A program made the position numbers and the translations under genes. A model generated the notes under the pieces. The model made no database searches. It saw only the letters and a list, made by a program, of their open reading frames with translations, and was not told the origin of the DNA. Source: a virus. Taken from it: DNA of 64,000 nt. Location of the stretch: positions 1-64,000 of the IMG/VR virus record IMGVR_UViG_3300032164_000003, one strand, 5' to 3'. Positions 2,584 through 10,991 of the stretch are shown here, piece after piece (position 1 is the first letter of the stretch; each line of letters starts with the position of its first letter).

Positions 2584-4155
2584 TTACAACTCGATCTCGT
2601 CCACGATCCCGACAAGCTGCTCGGAATCCAGATCATTGGTGGCGAACCGGTTGATTACGTCGAACACCTGATCGCTCCATCCACCAACGTTCAGCACGTC
2701 CTTGCGGTGCTTCGGTGCCTGTGTGTCCTTGCCAGCTTGAATGTCAATCAGCACCATCTTGGCGTTCTTGTTGCGCGACTTCAGCTGCTCCCACTCATGC
2801 ATCAATGGTGTGCAGCCCCGGCTCAAATAGTAAGAGCCTGCCCAGGACTCGTTGTCGCTAACAATGATGATTAGGTCTACCTCGGCGCGCTCACGGTTGA
2901 GTAGTCGCAATGGCGCAGAGCACTCCGTAGATCCACCGCCGATGCTTCCAAGCAGTGCCGCGTTGGTCATGATGCTGTCACGCGGATTGACCCGTACGTT
3001 GACCACATTTCCCTCGAACGGGATCACTCGCGACATTGGGTTCTTGCGCAAGTACACTGCGCTTACCAAGGCTGCCACGTCGATGCAGTTTACCTTGGTG
3101 GTTGCCGTGCCCCGGTCACCCGTGATCGGGCTGGACATAGATCCGGAAACATCTGGACAGATTACGACGTTTCCGTCAAACACGTCCACGTTCTCACAGG
3201 CAATTTCCATAGCCTCTTGCAGCGCATCCGAAATCTCAGCCGGCGCATCCTCGATGTTCTTGTACGCTGCTAGCAATTGGTACGGGAACGCACGTGCGCG
3301 CTGGATCTGATCACGATCCTGCAAGCGTTCCGCCACCAGCTTGACCATCTTCTTTCCGTCCCTGCCGTCGAACACACCATGCCGCTTGAACGTGTTGATG
3401 TTCATGCGGGTCATCATCCACTTTGCGTTCTTGGCAATCTCCTTCCAAGCTGCAGTATCCAATTCCAGCGAGGTTAGGTACTGGAAGGAAACATCCGGGA
3501 CTTCCTCTGCCTTGCCTGCCTTGAACAACTCGTACTCCTTGACGATCTTCGGCAGGTAGCGCTTGTTGTACTCCTTGCCCAGGATGTACGCGTAGAAGGC
3601 ATTGCGGGTCTTATCCTTCGGCTTCGGGTGAACCATCTTCACCAGATCGGCCAAAGATACACCAGCGCCTACGGCATCGCGGAATAGCTGCTCGTCAGTG
3701 CGACCGTCAAGCCAGCCACGGATGATGTTACGAGGAGCCGTACCGAAGCTCTTACGCCCGGTTACACCGCTGCGGATGATCTGAGCAAACTTGCGCAGCT
3801 GTGTGCCGTTGTCGATGGTCTTGGGAAAGATCGCCCTTACTAGATCGATCTCACCACGACCAACTAGGTGCGCCGTCAAGAAGGCCGGCATGTCCTTCAT
3901 ATAGCCCTTGTCACGGCTATACACTGCCACCTTGGCGATGAACTCTGGATCGACCTTGGTGCATAGATCTTGGGTATCGTTCATTAGTTCATCTGCGTGT
4001 GCATAGAAGATGTCATTGAAACAGTTGGTGACGGCATACTGAATGAGCGCATGCTTATCACTCATCTTGTATGCCAACCCACCCGCGCGGTTGCGAGTGT
4101 CCGACTTCGGGGCCATCTTACCACGGGTTGTTGAGAATAGACGACGGTTTACCAT
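2584..4155 (-). CDS. rsr: Ro60/Rsr-like TROVE domain RNA-binding protein with C-terminal vWA domain
   Basis: N-terminal NRAGGLAY, DPEFIAKVAVYSR..GYMKDMPA, GRKSFG, MVHPKP, ARAFPYQLLAAY; vWA MIDAS DVSGSM, SDNESW, GGWSDQVF. Probable start M7 (4155) after a GGAGG SD. Confidence 0.93.
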   Translation of the reverse strand: MVNRRLFSTTRGKMAPKSDTRNRAGGLAYKMSDKHALIQYAVTNCFNDIFYAHADELMNDTQDLCTKVDPEFIAKVAVYSRDKGYMKDMPAFLTAHLVGRGEIDLVRAIFPKTIDNGTQLRKFAQIIRSGVTGRKSFGTAPRNIIRGWLDGRTDEQLFRDAVGAGVSLADLVKMVHPKPKDKTRNAFYAYILGKEYNKRYLPKIVKEYELFKAGKAEEVPDVSFQYLTSLELDTAAWKEIAKNAKWMMTRMNINTFKRHGVFDGRDGKKMVKLVAERLQDRDQIQRARAFPYQLLAAYKNIEDAPAEISDALQEAMEIACENVDVFDGNVVICPDVSGSMSSPITGDRGTATTKVNCIDVAALVSAVYLRKNPMSRVIPFEGNVVNVRVNPRDSIMTNAALLGSIGGGSTECSAPLRLLNRERAEVDLIIIVSDNESWAGSYYLSRGCTPLMHEWEQLKSRNKNAKMVLIDIQAGKDTQAPKHRKDVLNVGGWSDQVFDVINRFATNDLDSEQLVGIVDEIEL

Positions 4156-4236
4156 AACTTCCCTCCGATGCATTTCCCTTTCGGGAACGATTATGCCGAG
4201 AGTACAACGAAAGTTTGAACGCTCTCAGCGATAAAA
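4156..4236 (-). promoter_or_regulatory. structured 5' leader of rsr with a circularly permuted Ro-site-like hairpin next to the SD
   Basis: GCTGAGAG/CTCTCGGC hairpin, then TCG-TTCCC-GAAA-GGGAA-ATGC, then GGAGG SD and ATG. Confidence 0.45.
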
Positions 4237-4244
4237 CTATAAAA

Positions 4245-4310
4245 TGGGGTGACAAGGTTTTGTAGAGATTTAGTCGGTTAATGATGTAATCCCTACAAGC
4301 ATTCACCCCA
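4245..4310 (-). ncRNA. Y-RNA-like unit 7 (minimal, scaffold only)
   Basis: GGGGTGA-ATGC-TTGTAGGGATTACAT...AATCTCTACAA-AACCTTG-TCACCCC. Confidence 0.7.
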
Positions 4311-4314
4311 ATAC

Positions 4315-4446
4315 TTTTGGGCAACGAAATTTGGAAAGACTTTTTACCGGAGTCCTGGCGTTAGACGACAGCCCGATGGTCGGGCTGGCAGGAGTTAAAC
4401 CTACGTTACCGGTCCTGTATGTAGTCCTTCCGGCATTTGCCCAAAA
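4315..4446 (-). ncRNA. Y-RNA-like unit 6 (YrlA-type, permuted tRNA domain)
   Basis: GGGCAA-ATGC-CGGAAGGACTACAT scaffold; ACCGG/CCGGT stem, T-arm GTAGG-TTTAACT-CCTGC, closed acceptor CAGCCCGA-CCA-TCGGGCTG, D-arm GTC..GAC. Confidence 0.8.
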
Positions 4447-4457
4447 CTGAAAATAAA

Positions 4458-4593
4458 TTGGCCAACGAGTATTGGAAAGATTTTTGTCTGCCGCTCTACC
4501 TACTGAGCTATACTACCATACAAAGTATGGCAGCAGCAGGACTCGAACCTGCGACCAACAGTTTATAATGTAATCCTTCCTGCATTTGGCCAA
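4458..4593 (-). ncRNA. Y-RNA-like unit 5 (YrlA-type, permuted tRNA domain)
   Basis: GGCCAA-ATGC-AGGAAGGATTACAT scaffold; T-arm GCAGG-TTCGAGT-CCTGC, closed acceptor TGCTGCCATAC-TTT-GTATGGTAGTA, D-arm GCTC-AGTAGGTA-GAGC. Confidence 0.85.
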
Positions 4594-4610
4594 AGCGAAA
4601 ACTTAGAAAA

Positions 4611-4766
4611 TTTGGACAACGAGAGTTGCGAGACGGTCAACCCGGGTATGACGTCCGGGCGCTCTACCTTAGAGCATCTCGCCCAATCAGAGATGGAATC
4701 CCGGTTGTGGGCGAGATAGGAATCGAACCTATTATGATGATGTAGTCCCGCTGGCATTTGTCCAAA
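4611..4766 (-). ncRNA. Y-RNA-like unit 4 (permuted tRNA retaining an anticodon-like arm)
   Basis: GGACAA-ATGC-CAGCGGGACTACAT scaffold; T-arm ATAGG-TTCGATT-CCTAT, acceptor CTCGCCCA/TGGGCGAG, D-arm GCTC-TAAGGTA-GAGC, arm CCCGG-ACGTCATAC-CCGGG. Confidence 0.8.
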
Positions 4767-4776
4767 ACTAAACTAC

Positions 4777-4894
4777 TTTACCCGACGAAAGGTGGAGAGA
4801 CTATTTTAAGCGTGCTACCGTTACACTAATTATACGGAGTTGAACCGTTCCTCCTCTTTATTAGAGATGTAATCCCTCTGGGCATTCGGGTAAA
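4777..4894 (-). ncRNA. Y-RNA-like unit 3 (T-arm + D-arm only)
   Basis: ACCCGA-ATGC-CCAGAGGGATTACAT scaffold; ACGG-TTCAACT-CCGT and GTG-TAACGGTAG-CAC with almost no acceptor stem. Confidence 0.75.
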
Positions 4895-4906
4895 ACGAAA
4901 ATTAGA

Positions 4907-4995
4907 TTGCCCAACGAAATTTGTCGAGACGTTGGACCACCCCCCGAGGGTGGTCATCTTTATCAGAGATGTAATCCCGACTGGCATTTGGGCAA
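4907..4995 (-). ncRNA. Y-RNA-like unit 2 (single GC-rich hairpin insert)
   Basis: GCCCAA-ATGC-CAGTCGGGATTACAT...GACCACCC/GGGTGGTC...GTCTCGAC-AAATTTCG-TTGGGC. Confidence 0.72.
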
Positions 4996-4999
4996 ATAG

Positions 5000-5063
5000 T
5001 TACCCGACAAGAGTAGAAGAGACATTTATCACATAAGATGTAGTCTCTTCAGCATTCGGGTAA
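5000..5063 (-). ncRNA. Y-RNA-like unit 1 (minimal, scaffold only)
   Basis: ACCCGA-ATGC-TGAAGAGACTACAT...GTCTCTTC-TACTCTTG-TCGGGT. Confidence 0.7.
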
Positions 5064-6580: not shown

Positions 6581-9500
6581 CTAGGAAATGTAAACTAAAC
6601 ATTCGTACTTCTCAAGCTCCTCAAATTTATACCAAGTCATTGTCAGCATGGAATTGGCAATTGCTACGCCCGGCATCATTGGATCTTCGTGTGTGGACTT
6701 GAATTCCAAATAAATTGTACGGCGTCCTGAACCTTGCGTAAATGGGAATGCATCAACTACTTCTCCTGGTACAATACTAAAAGAATCAAGAATTTCGAAA
6801 GCGACAGTTAGTGCTTGGCCGGGTTCATCGAAGCGCCCATTCCCATCTAGACCAGCACCAGACAGTTTTTCATTTATCTTTTCCCGCGTCTTTGGATCTA
6901 ACCTATTGGTCTTTTGTGCAATCATCGTCTGCGGCATCGGGCTGTCTTCTTGCACTTCCGTGACTCTATTAAATGCTTCTTCCATATCTTTAGGTACTGG
7001 CTCTCTCGGACCGCCCTTTTTCATTTCTTCATCAACGTGTGTCCAGAAATACCCGGGGACAGGATATGTACAGTTCTGGCATGGTGTGTCTCGCCAATAG
7101 TCTACGCGCTGCATGCTTTTGCATTCTGGGCATAGCGTTATGAATGCTCTTCCCCTACGGACAAATTCATTTGCAGCTTTTTCCATTTGTGCAAGCCGTT
7201 CGTAGTAATCTGCCATTTCCTTAAGATGCGCCCAGGCGATCTTTGCAGCCGCTTCCAGATCGTCTCCGATTACATCTGTCTCTGGGTCACTAGATCCGTG
7301 CTCTTGTTCTACTGTGATTCCCTTAGCTAAAGATTCCGGGGAGAATTCTACTTCTTCCCAGTTGATCCCTATCTTAGTTCCAATCTCCTTAGCCTCTTCT
7401 GCGGTGATTTCCGTTTCGCTGTGCTCGTGAGGGTCCATGGGGTTACCCCCCGCACGCAACGGAACGCCTATACCAACTTCTCTGGCGTAGTCCTCCATTA
7501 GTTCGCGCACATCGTATGGATCCATGTGTAATTGAATCGCAAGCTCTTCTAGATCCGATTCCGAAGGATTGCGGTGTTCCAATAACCACTCTTCGGCCTC
7601 TTCCAGGGTTGGAAGCCGTTGTTGTGTCGGAGCCGGAGTTTCTTCATAATCTGGATTTACCGGGGTAGAATATTGTCCAGTTCCTTCTGCTGGTTCTTGG
7701 TTGAGTGCCGTCTTTTCAGATGCCACTGCTGGCCGCATTGCATATGGTTGATCTTGTACCTCAATAGGAATCTGGTCGCTGGGCATCATAGAACTAAGTT
7801 CTTGCCGGATCAAGTTGGCGTCCTGCGAATTGTCAAAGCGGATCTCATCACCGATCAATCTATAGGAGCCGGCAAACTGTCCACCACTATACAACTCATT
7901 TACCAGGGCGGCTACATCTCTAGAATCAATGTATGGATAGTCGCCAATACTGATACTGTCCGCAGGCATAAATGGAGCTACTGCAGCGATAATCTCATCG
8001 ACCTTCTTGCTGGGATGCCCCAATAGGGGAAGTTCCTTTAGAAGATCAGCAAGCAATTCTGGGTCGCTAATGAATGGAAGAATGTCCATACCGTCCAGTA
8101 CGGTTAATACCTCCATTACAACATCATTGTCTGGCTCTTCATCGTCCATTGGATTTCTGCGGTCCGGATGCTCAGCCTTACCCTCTGCCAGCCCTTTTCC
8201 TACATCTGAATACGGGCCATCTCCAGGATTTTTACCAGGAGTACCGTCGTCAAATAATGAGGCCGGCTTATTTATAAGTGCACTGGCCATCTTGATCCCT
8301 CCAAGCATACGGATAGCCGTCTTTACTCTTGCTTCCTGCAAAGTCTTTGAGGAACGTGCCAGCCATTCTTTATTTTGTGACACGTCGCGTATGGCGAATA
8401 GCCACGAAGAAGAGAGTGCAAATCGATCCATGCTACCATTTGCACACAATAATTTGGATCCCATCTCTTTGATTATGGCAGCAGCTGCCGTTTTTGCGTC
8501 TGGGTAAACAACGTGCCCAATGGGAGTTTTTGAACTGTACCACTGGACACGAACTTTACCATCTTTCTGATCTGACATCTCCGGGAGAATCGCCGCATAC
8601 AAATCCACGCCGATCCCTTTATATTCTGTCCCGATTTTTGCAACACCAAAAATTGCAGATTCACCGTCCAGCGGCGTTTCCTCCGAAGAAACCTTATTAA
8701 GTTGCCTCATTGGTTTCCCCGGTTTCTGAATGAATTGCTGTTGAATAGTTCTATCCTCTACTGGAGAGCCTTGCTCACTCTGTGTAGAGGGTGTACTTTG
8801 CGTAGATGGTGCACTAGGAGACACAGGTGTCGGTGTAGAGTTGTCAGTAGTGGGCGCACCGGGAGACATCGGAGGTTGCGGAGTAGTGCTTGAGGGATTC
8901 TTTACTTGATCCTCAAACTGTTTTACTATCTCCTCTGATATACCCATATCTTTAAGTAGCTGGGTAATTTCCGGAATGTCACTAACGTTCATTTGCGCAG
9001 TGTTATACACGCGTACGTCTCCCTCATACGGACCGGTGTATTGCTCTGTACTGGGTCCGGTGCTCAAGTTTAGCTCTGTCCAGGCGTACTTCTTTCCGCA
9101 GGATGCACAAACGATGTCTTTACCATGCTCACCGGCTTGCATTCCATTTTCATTACCACAGTGTGGGCATGTGGAAGATCCTCCGTGCATCATTCCGCCC
9201 TCTGGAACCATGTCCGTATTTGTTTCATCCAGAGGTGAGAACTTAGTGTAATTTGGCCTGGCCTCTTCTACTTCTGCTGGGCCTTGCTGCTTGTACGGAA
9301 ACGCGCGCTTATTAGTTGCGTCTTTCATTTGCAGTGTCTCTGCGACGTCTGACACTTCTTCTTTGTCAACGCCGCTTTTAAAGATTCTCTTTAGCTTCTT
9401 GAGAAGATCTATGTACTTGTACTTTTCGAGCATCTTATACCGCACGTTTCCCGGTGCCTTGTGCCTGTCATCTGCCGGTGCGTTTCGGTAGGATTCGTCA

Positions 9501-10648
9501 CGGTCTTCTTTTATTTGTTCGTACTCTTGGACTAGCTCTCCCAGGATGCGATTAATTTCTTGCAGCTTTCCCTCCATCTTTTGCATGAGCCGGTCTGGAT
9601 TCCGAACTGCAGAAACAGCCTCCTTAATAAGTTCATAATCTACTGTGTACGTTTTCGTTTCCTGAATCAATTTGTCCAGGCGAGTCATTGTCTCAATAGT
9701 TTCTTGGCGCTCTTGTCCAAAGATCTGATCTGGATCAAACGATTCATCGTAAAGCTCTCCACTTTGTACCATCTGTCCTTGCTGAATGCTATAAACCGGA
9801 TCACGGTCTGTGATCCCAAGTGGAGATTGCCCTAACTTTGTTTGTTCTCCCTGTATAACAATTGTAGCATTGAACGGATGCTCTGTCTCTCCAAGCTTGA
9901 TGTCGTGAATAAGGTCTATCGTTATTTCGTAGAGTTTATCTCCAGTGATTCCTGGATAAACACTTTGAACGACTTCCGGATTCAATAGGAGCCTAGTATC
10001 CACATCGGTTTTCGAGTTGTACTGATTTGTAAGGATCGATCCGTATATGAATACATCTATAATTGCCTCTGCTGGAAGATGCAAGTCATCGAGGAAAGAT
10101 CCTACAATATCTTCTATCGCCGTTAAGATCTCTGGTTGAAGCTTTAGCTGATCTGCAGAAACGTTCCAAATAGACGGATCTAACTCGTCCCTTGGATAAT
10201 CAATGATTGAAGCGTGTGTCTTTCCCATTATGGTGTGTCCACCGGATTCTTCCTGAACACGGAGCCCATAGGTATTTTCTAAGTGCCCAATCAAATCTTT
10301 ATTTACTACATCTAAAGACAATACGGCGTCTGGATCCATGTCCTTAATTTCATAATTAAACTTATCAACGGCAATCTTGATCAATGCGGCCCCAAGTCCT
10401 TGTCTACGATAGTTACTGTGTACTGCAATATCAAATGAGTATTTACCATCTAAGTAATTATCCATCAAAGCAGACACAAGCACGCCACCGCCCCCACCAG
10501 CAAAATCTGGATCTACATGACCACAAACAAAGTCTTTATCGGACAAGAATGTGATGCCGGATTGCTGTGCCAATGCCCACGGATCTGCATTGACTAGATT
10601 TGCATCGTCAAGTTCCTCTAAGCCATAATATAGTTCCAGATCTGCCAT
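6581..10648 (-). CDS. large modular protein: GNAT acetyltransferase + Pol-beta-type nucleotidyltransferase + two Zn ribbons + DUF5661-like domain; probably virion-associated
   Basis: IAVHSNYRRQGLGAAL (acetyl-CoA motif); IYGSILTNQYNSKTDVD (GS..DxD); CPHCG..CASCG; GITVEQEH..AKIAWAHLKEMADYY; CPEC..CQNC. Start at M32 avoids overlap with the upstream gene. Confidence 0.75.
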   Translation of the reverse strand: MADLELYYGLEELDDANLVNADPWALAQQSGITFLSDKDFVCGHVDPDFAGGGGGVLVSALMDNYLDGKYSFDIAVHSNYRRQGLGAALIKIAVDKFNYEIKDMDPDAVLSLDVVNKDLIGHLENTYGLRVQEESGGHTIMGKTHASIIDYPRDELDPSIWNVSADQLKLQPEILTAIEDIVGSFLDDLHLPAEAIIDVFIYGSILTNQYNSKTDVDTRLLLNPEVVQSVYPGITGDKLYEITIDLIHDIKLGETEHPFNATIVIQGEQTKLGQSPLGITDRDPVYSIQQGQMVQSGELYDESFDPDQIFGQERQETIETMTRLDKLIQETKTYTVDYELIKEAVSAVRNPDRLMQKMEGKLQEINRILGELVQEYEQIKEDRDESYRNAPADDRHKAPGNVRYKMLEKYKYIDLLKKLKRIFKSGVDKEEVSDVAETLQMKDATNKRAFPYKQQGPAEVEEARPNYTKFSPLDETNTDMVPEGGMMHGGSSTCPHCGNENGMQAGEHGKDIVCASCGKKYAWTELNLSTGPSTEQYTGPYEGDVRVYNTAQMNVSDIPEITQLLKDMGISEEIVKQFEDQVKNPSSTTPQPPMSPGAPTTDNSTPTPVSPSAPSTQSTPSTQSEQGSPVEDRTIQQQFIQKPGKPMRQLNKVSSEETPLDGESAIFGVAKIGTEYKGIGVDLYAAILPEMSDQKDGKVRVQWYSSKTPIGHVVYPDAKTAAAAIIKEMGSKLLCANGSMDRFALSSSWLFAIRDVSQNKEWLARSSKTLQEARVKTAIRMLGGIKMASALINKPASLFDDGTPGKNPGDGPYSDVGKGLAEGKAEHPDRRNPMDDEEPDNDVVMEVLTVLDGMDILPFISDPELLADLLKELPLLGHPSKKVDEIIAAVAPFMPADSISIGDYPYIDSRDVAALVNELYSGGQFAGSYRLIGDEIRFDNSQDANLIRQELSSMMPSDQIPIEVQDQPYAMRPAVASEKTALNQEPAEGTGQYSTPVNPDYEETPAPTQQRLPTLEEAEEWLLEHRNPSESDLEELAIQLHMDPYDVRELMEDYAREVGIGVPLRAGGNPMDPHEHSETEITAEEAKEIGTKIGINWEEVEFSPESLAKGITVEQEHGSSDPETDVIGDDLEAAAKIAWAHLKEMADYYERLAQMEKAANEFVRRGRAFITLCPECKSMQRVDYWRDTPCQNCTYPVPGYFWTHVDEEMKKGGPREPVPKDMEEAFNRVTEVQEDSPMPQTMIAQKTNRLDPKTREKINEKLSGAGLDGNGRFDEPGQALTVAFEILDSFSIVPGEVVDAFPFTQGSGRRTIYLEFKSTHEDPMMPGVAIANSMLTMTWYKFEELEKYECLVYIS

Positions 10649-10655
10649 GTTGTAA

Positions 10656-10991
10656 TTACTCGCCCTTAACCTGCATGCGCGGAACAACGTACTTTTCCGG
10701 TGTAATGGCTGGTGCTGGAGGCTTGATACCGACTGTGCCATGCATTGTTGTGTACATTCCAGACTTCATCATGTCTATGTACGCTTCGAGCTTAGCAATC
10801 TTTATTGCCTGCTCATTAAACTTGCTTTCCAAGGAAGGGATCACTACATTGTCTAATTGGACAACTGTCTTCTTTATTTCACCACTTCCAATAACTGCTG
10901 TAACAATTACTCCAATAACTGCGAGTAATGCGGCAAAGTATGGTCCCAGTACCTTTAGGAATTCAATCTTGGTCTTCGTCTCGTCTGCCAT
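10656..10991 (-). CDS. membrane-anchored coiled-coil protein
   Basis: N-terminal hydrophobic helix YFAALLAVIGVIVTAVIG; GAGG SD. Confidence 0.65.
   Translation of the reverse strand: MADETKTKIEFLKVLGPYFAALLAVIGVIVTAVIGSGEIKKTVVQLDNVVIPSLESKFNEQAIKIAKLEAYIDMMKSGMYTTMHGTVGIKPPAPAITPEKYVVPRMQVKGE

What the first reader, a model, noticed from the sequence alone, without database searches (positions are those of the whole stretch)
4156..4236. rsr leader contains a circularly permuted Ro-site mimic beside the Shine-Dalgarno: candidate autoregulatory switch
Seen on the minus strand: GCTGAGAG-(19 nt)-CTCTCGGC-ATAA-TCG-TTCCC-GAAA-GGGAA-ATGC-ATC-GGAGG-GAAGTT-ATG. The two scaffold half-motifs of the array (TCG-TT[stem] and [stem]AA-ATGC) occur here in reverse order, joined by a GAAA tetraloop. 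The position of the upper stem would pair CTCTCGG with TCGGAGGG (the SD; G-U pairs and one bulge), while CTCTCGGC can alternatively pair with upstream GCTGAGAG and free the SD. Inference: Ro in excess over its Y RNAs could bind its own leader and block translation, matching protein to RNA levels in the manner of ribosomal-protein operators.
Basis: partly seen in the sequence, partly recalled or inferred. Interest (0 to 1): 0.78.

Follow-up and report, generated by a model that had tools for sequence, protein, structure and literature searches.

The report
Ro-site mimic in phage rsr leader
Just ahead of a phage's Ro60 (Rsr) gene sits a small capped hairpin carrying both halves of the site by which Ro60 grips its partner Y RNAs, right beside the ribosome-binding site. 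The same layout recurs in unrelated phages, so Ro60 probably senses and limits its own synthesis, which has not been described before.

Summary
On the minus strand, 4190-4170 reads UCG-UUCCC-GAAA-GGGAA-AUGC. The Shine-Dalgarno GGAGG follows 3 nt later, and the rsr start is ATG 4155, not 4173.

The flanks are the two invariant half-motifs of the seven Y-RNA units directly upstream, in swapped order around a capped lower stem.

The element recurs:
- It is near-identical in the closest available homologue (L003, loop GUAA).
- It has different, still complementary stems in L095 and L030.
- Exact hits in 169 rsr leaders number 2, against 0.045 expected by shuffling.
- Ro leaders of Streptomyces, Microbacterium and Rhodococcus phages show the same layout built from their own Y RNAs' motifs (AACAU ... 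CGAA).

Best reading, about 0.45: an Rsr-binding operator that blocks ribosome entry when Rsr exceeds its Y RNAs. Binding and repression are inferred, not shown.

The CUCUCGG:SD helix costs 8 kcal/mol against the predicted fold and is absent from the homologues.

I found no report of Ro60 autoregulation in the searchable literature.

The scan had already noted the Y-RNA array on this same window, but not this leader element on other DNA.

The parts
4245..5063 (-). Context: tandem array of seven Y-RNA-like units, each [stem]-RA|AUGC ... UYG|UY-[stem']. This is the source of the two half-motifs.
   Evidence: (Rfam YrlA/YrlB sub-threshold hits)
4195..4229 (-). Hairpin 1: GCUGAGAG, 19-nt loop, CUCUCGGC. 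It stands in the position of a Y-unit upper stem. Its 3' strand resembles the GUCUCUCC 3' strand of the Y units. It is not conserved in L003.
   Evidence: (-10.9 kcal/mol alone; formed in the MFE and the centroid)
4188..4194 (-). AUAA-UCG: the 3'-strand half of the Y-unit Ro module (Y units read AAUAC-UCG, AAAUU-UCG, AACC-UUG).
4174..4187 (-). Hairpin 2: UUCCC-GAAA-GGGAA. This is the Y-unit lower stem closed by a tetraloop, and the conserved core of the element.
   Evidence: (formed in all low-energy folds). Identical stem in L003; different complementary stems in L095 and L030.
4170..4173 (-). AUGC: the 5'-strand half of the Ro module. With the stem it reads GGGAAAUGC, against GGGCAAAUGC in unit Y6.
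   Evidence: The published Rsr motif is GNCGAAN0-1G.
4162..4166 (-). Shine-Dalgarno GGAGG, 3 nt after AUGC and 6 nt before the start codon.
4153..4155 (-). True rsr start codon ATG (MVNRR...).
   Evidence: (homologue N-termini)
4171..4173 (-). Upstream in-frame ATG lying inside the AUGC motif. It is not the start codon.
   Evidence: The equivalent ATG is out of frame in L003 and L030.
2584..4155 (-). rsr gene: Ro60 with TROVE and vWA domains, 523 aa.

Best explanation
The rsr 5' leader holds a cis-acting mimic of the Rsr (Ro60) binding module of the phage's own Y RNAs.

In a Y RNA the module is the lower stem, made by pairing the two RNA ends, plus two conserved strands: RA-AUGC on the 5' side and UYG-UY on the 3' side. 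In the leader the same stem is closed by a loop, so the strands appear in swapped order (UCG-UUCCC-loop-GGGAA-AUGC). The 5' strand, which is the strand Ro60 mainly contacts, ends 3 nt before the SD.

Inferred mechanism: Rsr that is not occupied by Y RNAs binds this hairpin and sterically keeps the 30S subunit off the SD and start codon. Rsr synthesis is thereby matched to Y-RNA supply.

Shown here: the motif, its conservation, its stem covariation, and its position next to the SD.

Inferred: binding, repression, and competition by Y RNAs.

The element most likely arose from a tail-to-head junction of two tandem Y units.
For: (1) The sequence matches the grammar of all 10 Y units examined: RA|AUGC and UYG|UY.

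(2) Window and L003 (Rsr 71% identical) share 20 of 21 core bases while the flanking leader sequence is unrelated. The single change keeps a GNRA loop.

(3) L095 (UUG-UCCAGUCC-GUUA-GGACUGGA-AUGC) and L030 (UUG-UCCGCGU-8 nt-ACGUGGA-AUGA) keep the flanks and the position but have wholly different complementary stems. L088 and L090 carry a weaker variant with one compensatory A-U to G-C change.

(4) Enrichment: 2 exact hits in 169 leaders against 0.045 in shuffles; 8 near hits against 1.2.

(5) The motif ends 0-7 nt from the SD in these six leaders and in Beuffert and Big4.

(6) In very distant Ro genes (about 22-24% identity) the leader copies that phage's own Y RNA:
- Streptomyces phage Beuffert has AAUAACCAU-GCCCA-UAA-UGGGC-CGAAG-SD. 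Its Y RNA reads GUGGGU-CGAAUG ... AACAACAU-AUCCAC.
- Microbacterium phage Big4 has ACGAGC-CGAAG-SD. Its Y RNAs read GAGC-CGAAAG and GAGC-CGAAG.
- Rhodococcus phage Trina has CAAACAUA-UUCAACC-loop-GGUUGAA-CCGAG. Its Y RNA reads CUGAGC-CGAC ... CCAACAU-GCUCAG.

Against: - There are no binding, expression or RNA-end data.
- All four strong leader copies (window, L003, L095, L030) have G where the Y units have C or U, 3 nt before AUGC. This is the invariant C of GNCGAA. It could weaken binding, as expected of an operator, or abolish it.
- The leader lacks the GAYUACAU box and, in L003, any upper stem.
- Most rsr leaders sampled (about 160 of 169) lack the element, as do several phages: Mx1, Pumpernickel, GMA2, BlueNGold, pv27 and csAssE-Sib.
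- In Mycobacterium phage Cali the candidate junction motif lies about 30-45 nt upstream of the start codon, not at the SD.
- Tandem Y units with like stems make junction hairpins by themselves (L013, L085), so part of the pattern could be descent rather than selection.
- The actinophage examples were found by eye in 16 leaders, not by a blind test, and some of them are related to one another.
Confidence: 0.45

Rival explanations
1. The element binds Rsr but does not repress translation. Bound Rsr might shield the 5' end left after the Y-RNA array is processed away. It might recruit PNPase to the mRNA (RYPER-type decay). Or it might help newly made Rsr load onto the co-transcribed Y RNAs.
For: The mimicry and conservation evidence is the same as for the main reading. 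The gene sits in one long same-strand run of tRNAs, Y RNAs, rsr, tRNA-Ala and rtcB, so its mRNA 5' end is probably made by processing. Rsr-Y RNA-PNPase complexes are established, including for a phage Ro60 (PMC12135203).
Against: The consistent position against the SD is what a translational operator needs and is not required for these roles. L088, L090 and L095 appear to have their own promoters and no Y array upstream.
Confidence: 0.15
2. It is a structural 5'-UTR element that does not involve Rsr: a stabilising hairpin, an RNase processing signal at the end of the Y array, or the site of another factor. The likeness to the Ro site would then be inherited from Y-unit ends.
For: Hairpin 2 forms in all low-energy folds. 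The leader copies differ from the Y units at one conserved position and lack the GAYUACAU box.
Against: A plain stabiliser needs no UYG and AUGC flanks. Yet these flanks persist while stem and loop change freely. Distant phages rebuild the element from their own Y-RNA motifs.
Confidence: 0.17
3. It is a non-functional remnant: the decayed junction between the 3' end of one Y unit and the 5' end of a lost unit.
For: Junction hairpins arise automatically between tandem Y units (L013 at 1541, L085 at 4447). Hairpin 1 plus AUAA-UCG looks like the 3' half of a Y unit.
Against: 20 of 21 bases are kept at 71% protein identity while the flanks have diverged. Stems stay complementary across lineages. 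The element is also present where no Y array lies upstream (L095, L088, L090).
Confidence: 0.13
4. It is an eighth, circularly permuted mini Y RNA (4229-4170) that is cut out and acts in trans. The SD merely lies downstream of it.
For: Hairpin 1, linker, hairpin 2 and AUGC together reproduce a YrlB-like unit nicked between AUGC and the upper stem.
Against: Hairpin 1 is absent in L003. Cutting after AUGC would leave an mRNA with only about 3 nt ahead of its SD. No Rfam hit falls on 4156-4240 even at E up to 5.
Confidence: 0.05
5. The region is a promoter. TTCAAA-18 nt-CATAAT (4219-4190) would start transcription inside hairpin 2, so the hairpin would never form in RNA.
For: A 9-of-12 sigma-70 match.
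Against: The region holds no more such matches than shuffled sequence (3 found, 3.6 expected). The hexamers are not conserved in L003.
Confidence: 0.05

Closest known systems
Autogenous translational operators built by molecular mimicry: ribosomal-protein leaders (S8/spc, L1, S15, L20), the E. coli thrS operator that mimics tRNA-Thr, and the MS2 coat-protein/replicase hairpin. From established knowledge, not tested here.
   Same: A copy of the protein's normal RNA target is placed in its own mRNA at or beside the ribosome-binding site. It deviates from the primary target, as such operators often do, and so would be occupied only when the primary targets are saturated.
   Different: The protein is Ro60/Rsr, for which I found no autoregulation reported. 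The mimic is a topological permutation, with the two target strands swapped around a capped stem. It co-varies with lineage-specific Y RNAs.
Bacterial Y RNAs: YrlA (RF02553) and YrlB (RF02565)
   Same: It has the lower stem and both conserved strands of the Rsr-binding module, and it sits next to rsr.
   Different: The stem is capped by a loop rather than formed by the RNA ends. There is no effector or tRNA-like module and no GAYUACAU box. It lies inside an mRNA leader. The covariance models do not hit it.
Y-like RNAs Yrl1 and Yrl2 upstream of Thermus phage phiLo Ro60 (PMC12135203)
   Same: Phage-encoded Ro60 ligands with a CGAA-type motif, lying upstream of the Ro60 gene.
   Different: They are described as free Y-like RNAs that bind Ro60 and PNPase. 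A site abutting the SD and control of Ro60 synthesis are not discussed in the passages I read.

Membership tests
Y RNA (YrlA/YrlB) | Match to the Rfam covariance model | tested here: not met
   No YrlA or YrlB hit covers 4156-4240 at E up to 5. The nearest hit, YrlB-like at 26.9 bits, ends at 4241.
Y RNA (YrlA/YrlB) | Long stem formed by pairing the RNA's 5' and 3' ends, holding the Ro60 site | tested here: not met
   The stem is closed by a GAAA loop and the strand order is reversed.
Y RNA (YrlA/YrlB) | 5'-strand Rsr motif GNCGAAN0-1G (Chen 2014) | tested here: inconclusive
   The leader reads GGGAAAUG. The phage's own Y units read G/C-N-C/U-A/G-AAUG. The leader differs only at the C/U position, but that is the conserved C. 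The Beuffert and Big4 leaders match GCCGAAG exactly.
Y RNA (YrlA/YrlB) | Effector module (tRNA-like domain or large internal loop) | tested here: not met
   No tRNA-like element lies in 4156-4240.
Mimicry-type autogenous translational operator | Copy of the protein's cognate RNA site in its own mRNA | tested here: met
   Met at sequence level: both half-motifs and the stem are present.
Mimicry-type autogenous translational operator | Site overlaps or abuts the ribosome-binding site | tested here: met
   The motif ends 3 nt from the SD in the window and 0-7 nt from it in the other examples, except Cali.
Mimicry-type autogenous translational operator | Conserved with covariation in homologous leaders | tested here: met
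   Found in L003, L095, L030, L088 and L090, with enrichment over shuffles. The set is small and no R-scape-type test was possible.
Mimicry-type autogenous translational operator | The protein binds the site and represses translation | not testable with these tools
   Needs EMSA, toeprinting or a reporter assay.
Two-state SD-sequestering switch | Mutually exclusive helices of comparable stability, with a conserved anti-SD | tested here: not met
   The alternative fold is 8 kcal/mol worse. No anti-SD exists in L003.
Intrinsic terminator | GC-rich hairpin followed by a U tract | tested here: not met
   No terminator-like site is called at 4156-4240. AUGCAUC follows the hairpin.

The most novel reading that the evidence does not exclude
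Autoregulation of Ro60 through a permuted mimic of the Y-RNA binding module is a general, repeatedly evolved or co-evolving feature of phage Ro60 genes, and perhaps of some bacterial ones. Each leader would track the sequence flavour of its own genome's Y RNAs. The Rsr-to-Y-RNA ratio would then be a controlled quantity.
Probability: 0.3. Interest if true: 0.85.

Novelty: new variant of a known kind. Interest (0 to 1): 0.7.

Why it matters
How Ro60 and its Y RNAs are kept in balance is not known. Y RNAs both gate and tether Ro60, so free Ro60 should matter to the cell or phage.

A leader operator would give the first feedback loop for this conserved RNA-surveillance protein, which is an autoantigen in humans.

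It would also define a minimal Rsr-binding RNA of about 21 nt, useful for structural work.

It would explain why rsr and Y RNAs are so often linked, and it is directly testable in cultured systems such as Streptomyces phage Beuffert, Microbacterium phage Big4 and Rhodococcus phage Trina.

It would also be a clear case of an operator made by circular permutation of its model.

Tried and rejected
The contigs of the nine other close homologues (P0003, P0005-P0012; 59-72% identity) could therefore not be read. Only L003 (P0004) was recovered, through the search for related loci.
- Scans of viral contigs with TCGTTCCCGNRAGGGAAATGC found nothing. A version with a free stem plus the SD found one hit, in a giant-virus MAG, whose arms do not pair, so it is chance.
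- The closest relative of the L095 Rsr (L117, 71%) is cut off at the contig end and has no leader.
- No RNA holder was listed among the public runs.
- Contigs of four sediment runs showed no variant in the leader.
- MAFFT put the unequal stems of the three leaders out of register. I therefore built no covariance model and used a descriptor scan with shuffled controls instead.
- Rfam found no Y RNA within 3 kb of rsr in L095, L088, L090 or L030. L088 and L090 have Y RNAs elsewhere in their genomes, with GA-AUGC and UUG-UC. Their leaders (G-AUGR) match these less well, so I count them only as weak examples.
- The Myxococcus phage Mx1 rsr has a 32-nt spacer and no element.
- No Y RNA was identified in Streptomyces phage Angela, so its CGGAAG leader variant could not be compared.

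Full report
CONTEXT

The window is the first 64 kb of a 91-kb IMG/VR virus record with an estimated completeness of 50%. DNA runs that hold it are sediment metagenomes.

On the minus strand one co-oriented run reads:
- four tRNAs, 5593-5120;
- seven Y-RNA-like units, 5063-4245;
- an 89-nt leader;
- rsr, 4155-2584, with Ro60 TROVE and vWA domains;
- tRNA-Ala;
- rtcB, 2123-984;
- more tRNAs.

THE OBSERVATION

The core is UCG-UUCCC-GAAA-GGGAA-AUGC (4190-4170). It is followed by AUC, the SD GGAGG (4166-4162), six bases, and ATG 4155.

The start is 4155. Seventeen homologues, down to 53% identity, begin MVN/MAN at that codon. The ATG inside AUGC is out of frame in L003 and L030.

All seven Y units here, and three in L003, share the grammar [stem]-RA|AUGC-N-purine-rich stem-GAYUACAU ... 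(G/A)UCUY-rich stem-N4-5-UYG|UY-[stem']. The leader holds the two invariant junctions in reverse order around a capped five-pair stem.

IS IT MORE THAN CHANCE?

The exact descriptor is TYG, a perfect stem of 5 bp or more, a loop of 3-8 nt, then ATGC. It occurs once in the 128 kb of window strand.

I collected about 200 rsr loci from metagenomes, IMG/VR and GTDB genomes. In 169 non-identical leaders (90 nt upstream), 2 besides the window carry the exact descriptor, where 200 shuffles gave a mean of 0.045. With one flank mismatch allowed, 8 leaders hit against a mean of 1.2 and a maximum of 4.

CONSERVATION

L003 has an Rsr 71% identical and the same layout of tRNA, Y array, rsr and tRNA. It reads AAC-UCG-UUCCC-GUAA-GGGAA-AUGC-UA-GGAGG-UCGUC-GUG. 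That is 20 of 21 core bases identical, and the only change keeps a GNRA loop. The rest of the leader is unalignable.

Other leaders:
- L095 (Rsr 44% identical to the window's): AAC-UUG-UCCAGUCC-GUUA-GGACUGGA-AUGC-7 nt-GGAGG-5 nt-GUG.
- L030 (a sigma-54-type bacterial leader): UUG-UCCGCGU-8 nt-ACGUGGA-AUGA-4 nt-GGAGG.
- L088 and L090: UUG-CUGRC-AUAA-GYCAG-AUGR running into the SD, with one compensatory pair change, downstream of good sigma-70 promoters.

So the stems and loops change freely, while the flanks and the position against the SD persist.

L095, L088 and L090 have no Y array upstream. The element is therefore not just the tail of an array.

DISTANT PHAGES

I read 16 Ro leaders from GenBank phages whose Ro is only about 20-24% identical to this one.
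- Streptomyces phage Beuffert has AAUAACCAU-GCCCA-UAA-UGGGC-CGAAG-AAAGGA(SD). Its own Y RNA reads GUGGGU-CGAAUG ... AACAACAU-AUCCAC.
- Microbacterium phage Big4 has GCUCGU-7 nt-ACGAGC-CGAAG-AAAGGA. Its Y RNAs read GAGC-CGAAAG and GAGC-CGAAG.
- Rhodococcus phage Trina has CAAACAUA-UUCAACC-AAAAG-GGUUGAA-CCGAG. Its Y RNA reads CUGAGC-CGAC ... CCAACAU-GCUCAG.
- Streptomyces phages Angela and BoomerJR carry GCCCU-ARA-AGGGC-CGGAA(A)GG. Their closing pair is swapped relative to Beuffert.
- Mycobacterium phage Cali has CCAU-GUU-CAC-AAC-CGAAU farther from the SD.
- Several others have nothing comparable.

GCCGAAG in Beuffert and Big4 is an exact match to the published Rsr motif GNCGAAN0-1G (PMC4201824).

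Each leader therefore uses the motif flavour of its own genome's Y RNAs. This is the strongest argument for mimicry. It rests on reading by eye, and several of these phages are related to one another.

FOLDING

In a 111-nt context the minimum free energy is -26.4 kcal/mol, with hairpin 1 (4229-4195) and hairpin 2 (4187-4174) both formed. The SD is partly paired to UUCUC in the coding region.

When enforced it reaches only -18.4 kcal/mol. L003 has no partner for its SD, and L095 has none in the same register. The two-state switch is therefore not supported.

Hairpin 1 can instead be read as the upper stem of the permuted unit. It is not conserved.

MECHANISM

Ro60 contacts mainly the 5' strand of the Y-RNA helix. 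In the leaders that strand ends 0-7 nt from the SD, well inside the region that a 30S subunit covers.

The simplest model is steric translational repression by Rsr that is not engaged with Y RNAs. All four strong leader copies carry G where the Y units carry C or U, three bases before AUGC. This fits a deliberately weaker site. It could equally mean that Rsr does not bind.

Alternatives are listed with their odds under rival explanations:
- Rsr binding for mRNA stability or decay;
- a structural or processing hairpin unrelated to Rsr;
- a decayed Y-unit junction;
- a trans-acting permuted mini Y RNA;
- a promoter.

NOVELTY

Full-text searches found no report of Ro60/Rsr controlling its own mRNA. 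The kind of device, an autogenous operator by mimicry, is classical. The protein, the permuted topology, and the co-variation with lineage-specific Y RNAs are new.

LIMITS

- There are no RNA or binding data.
- No covariance model could be built.
- The actinophage survey was small and not blind.

Noticed in passing
window 4245-5063 (-): Seven tandem Y-RNA-like units of 64-156 nt. Each has an 8-11-bp lower stem, RA-AUGC, a GAYUACAU box and UYG-UY. Three score as YrlA just below the Rfam gathering threshold (64, 46 and 41 bits).
   Followed up: partly
loci L004-L197, positions -20 to -13 from the rsr start: CGAAAG lies just upstream of the start in 35 of 168 non-identical bacterial rsr leaders, against 2.8 expected. 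The usual context is aCGAAAGcGAGGa. CGAA is the core of the Rsr motif, but GAAAG is also SD-like and these leaders are related to one another. Many also carry sigma-54 promoters (TGGCAC-N5-TTGC). A recurrent GGUAYUUCGAUUGAAAGCGAGG block can pair CUUCG with CGAGG, which would cover the SD.
   Followed up: partly
L003 441-660 (+): A HEARO (IS200/IS605 omega-RNA-like) hit of 60.8 bits, below the gathering score of 83, lies inside the Y-RNA array region of the related contig.
   Followed up: no
window 4130-4165 (-): In the predicted fold, the SD bases GAGGG pair with UUCUC about 30 nt into the coding region, enclosing the start codon. Conservation was not checked.
   Followed up: no
window 4190-4219 (-): A sigma-70-like TTCAAA-18 nt-CATAAT overlaps hairpin 1 and the linker. 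The match is no better than in shuffled sequence and is not conserved in L003.
   Followed up: partly
L030 3453-3529: A near-perfect 29-bp palindrome lies just downstream of rsr. It is picked up as spurious miRNA-precursor hits.
   Followed up: no
window 6581-10741 (-): A 1386-aa ORF with a DUF5661 domain and a weak GNAT match lies upstream of the tRNA and Y-RNA block.
   Followed up: no
L095 2810-2967 (+): The rsr gene has a putative extended -10 promoter (TTGAAG-17 nt-TGnTAGATA). It would start the transcript at a GUUCCUC/GAGGGGC hairpin immediately before the element. No YrlA was found in the 31.7-kb contig.
   Followed up: partly
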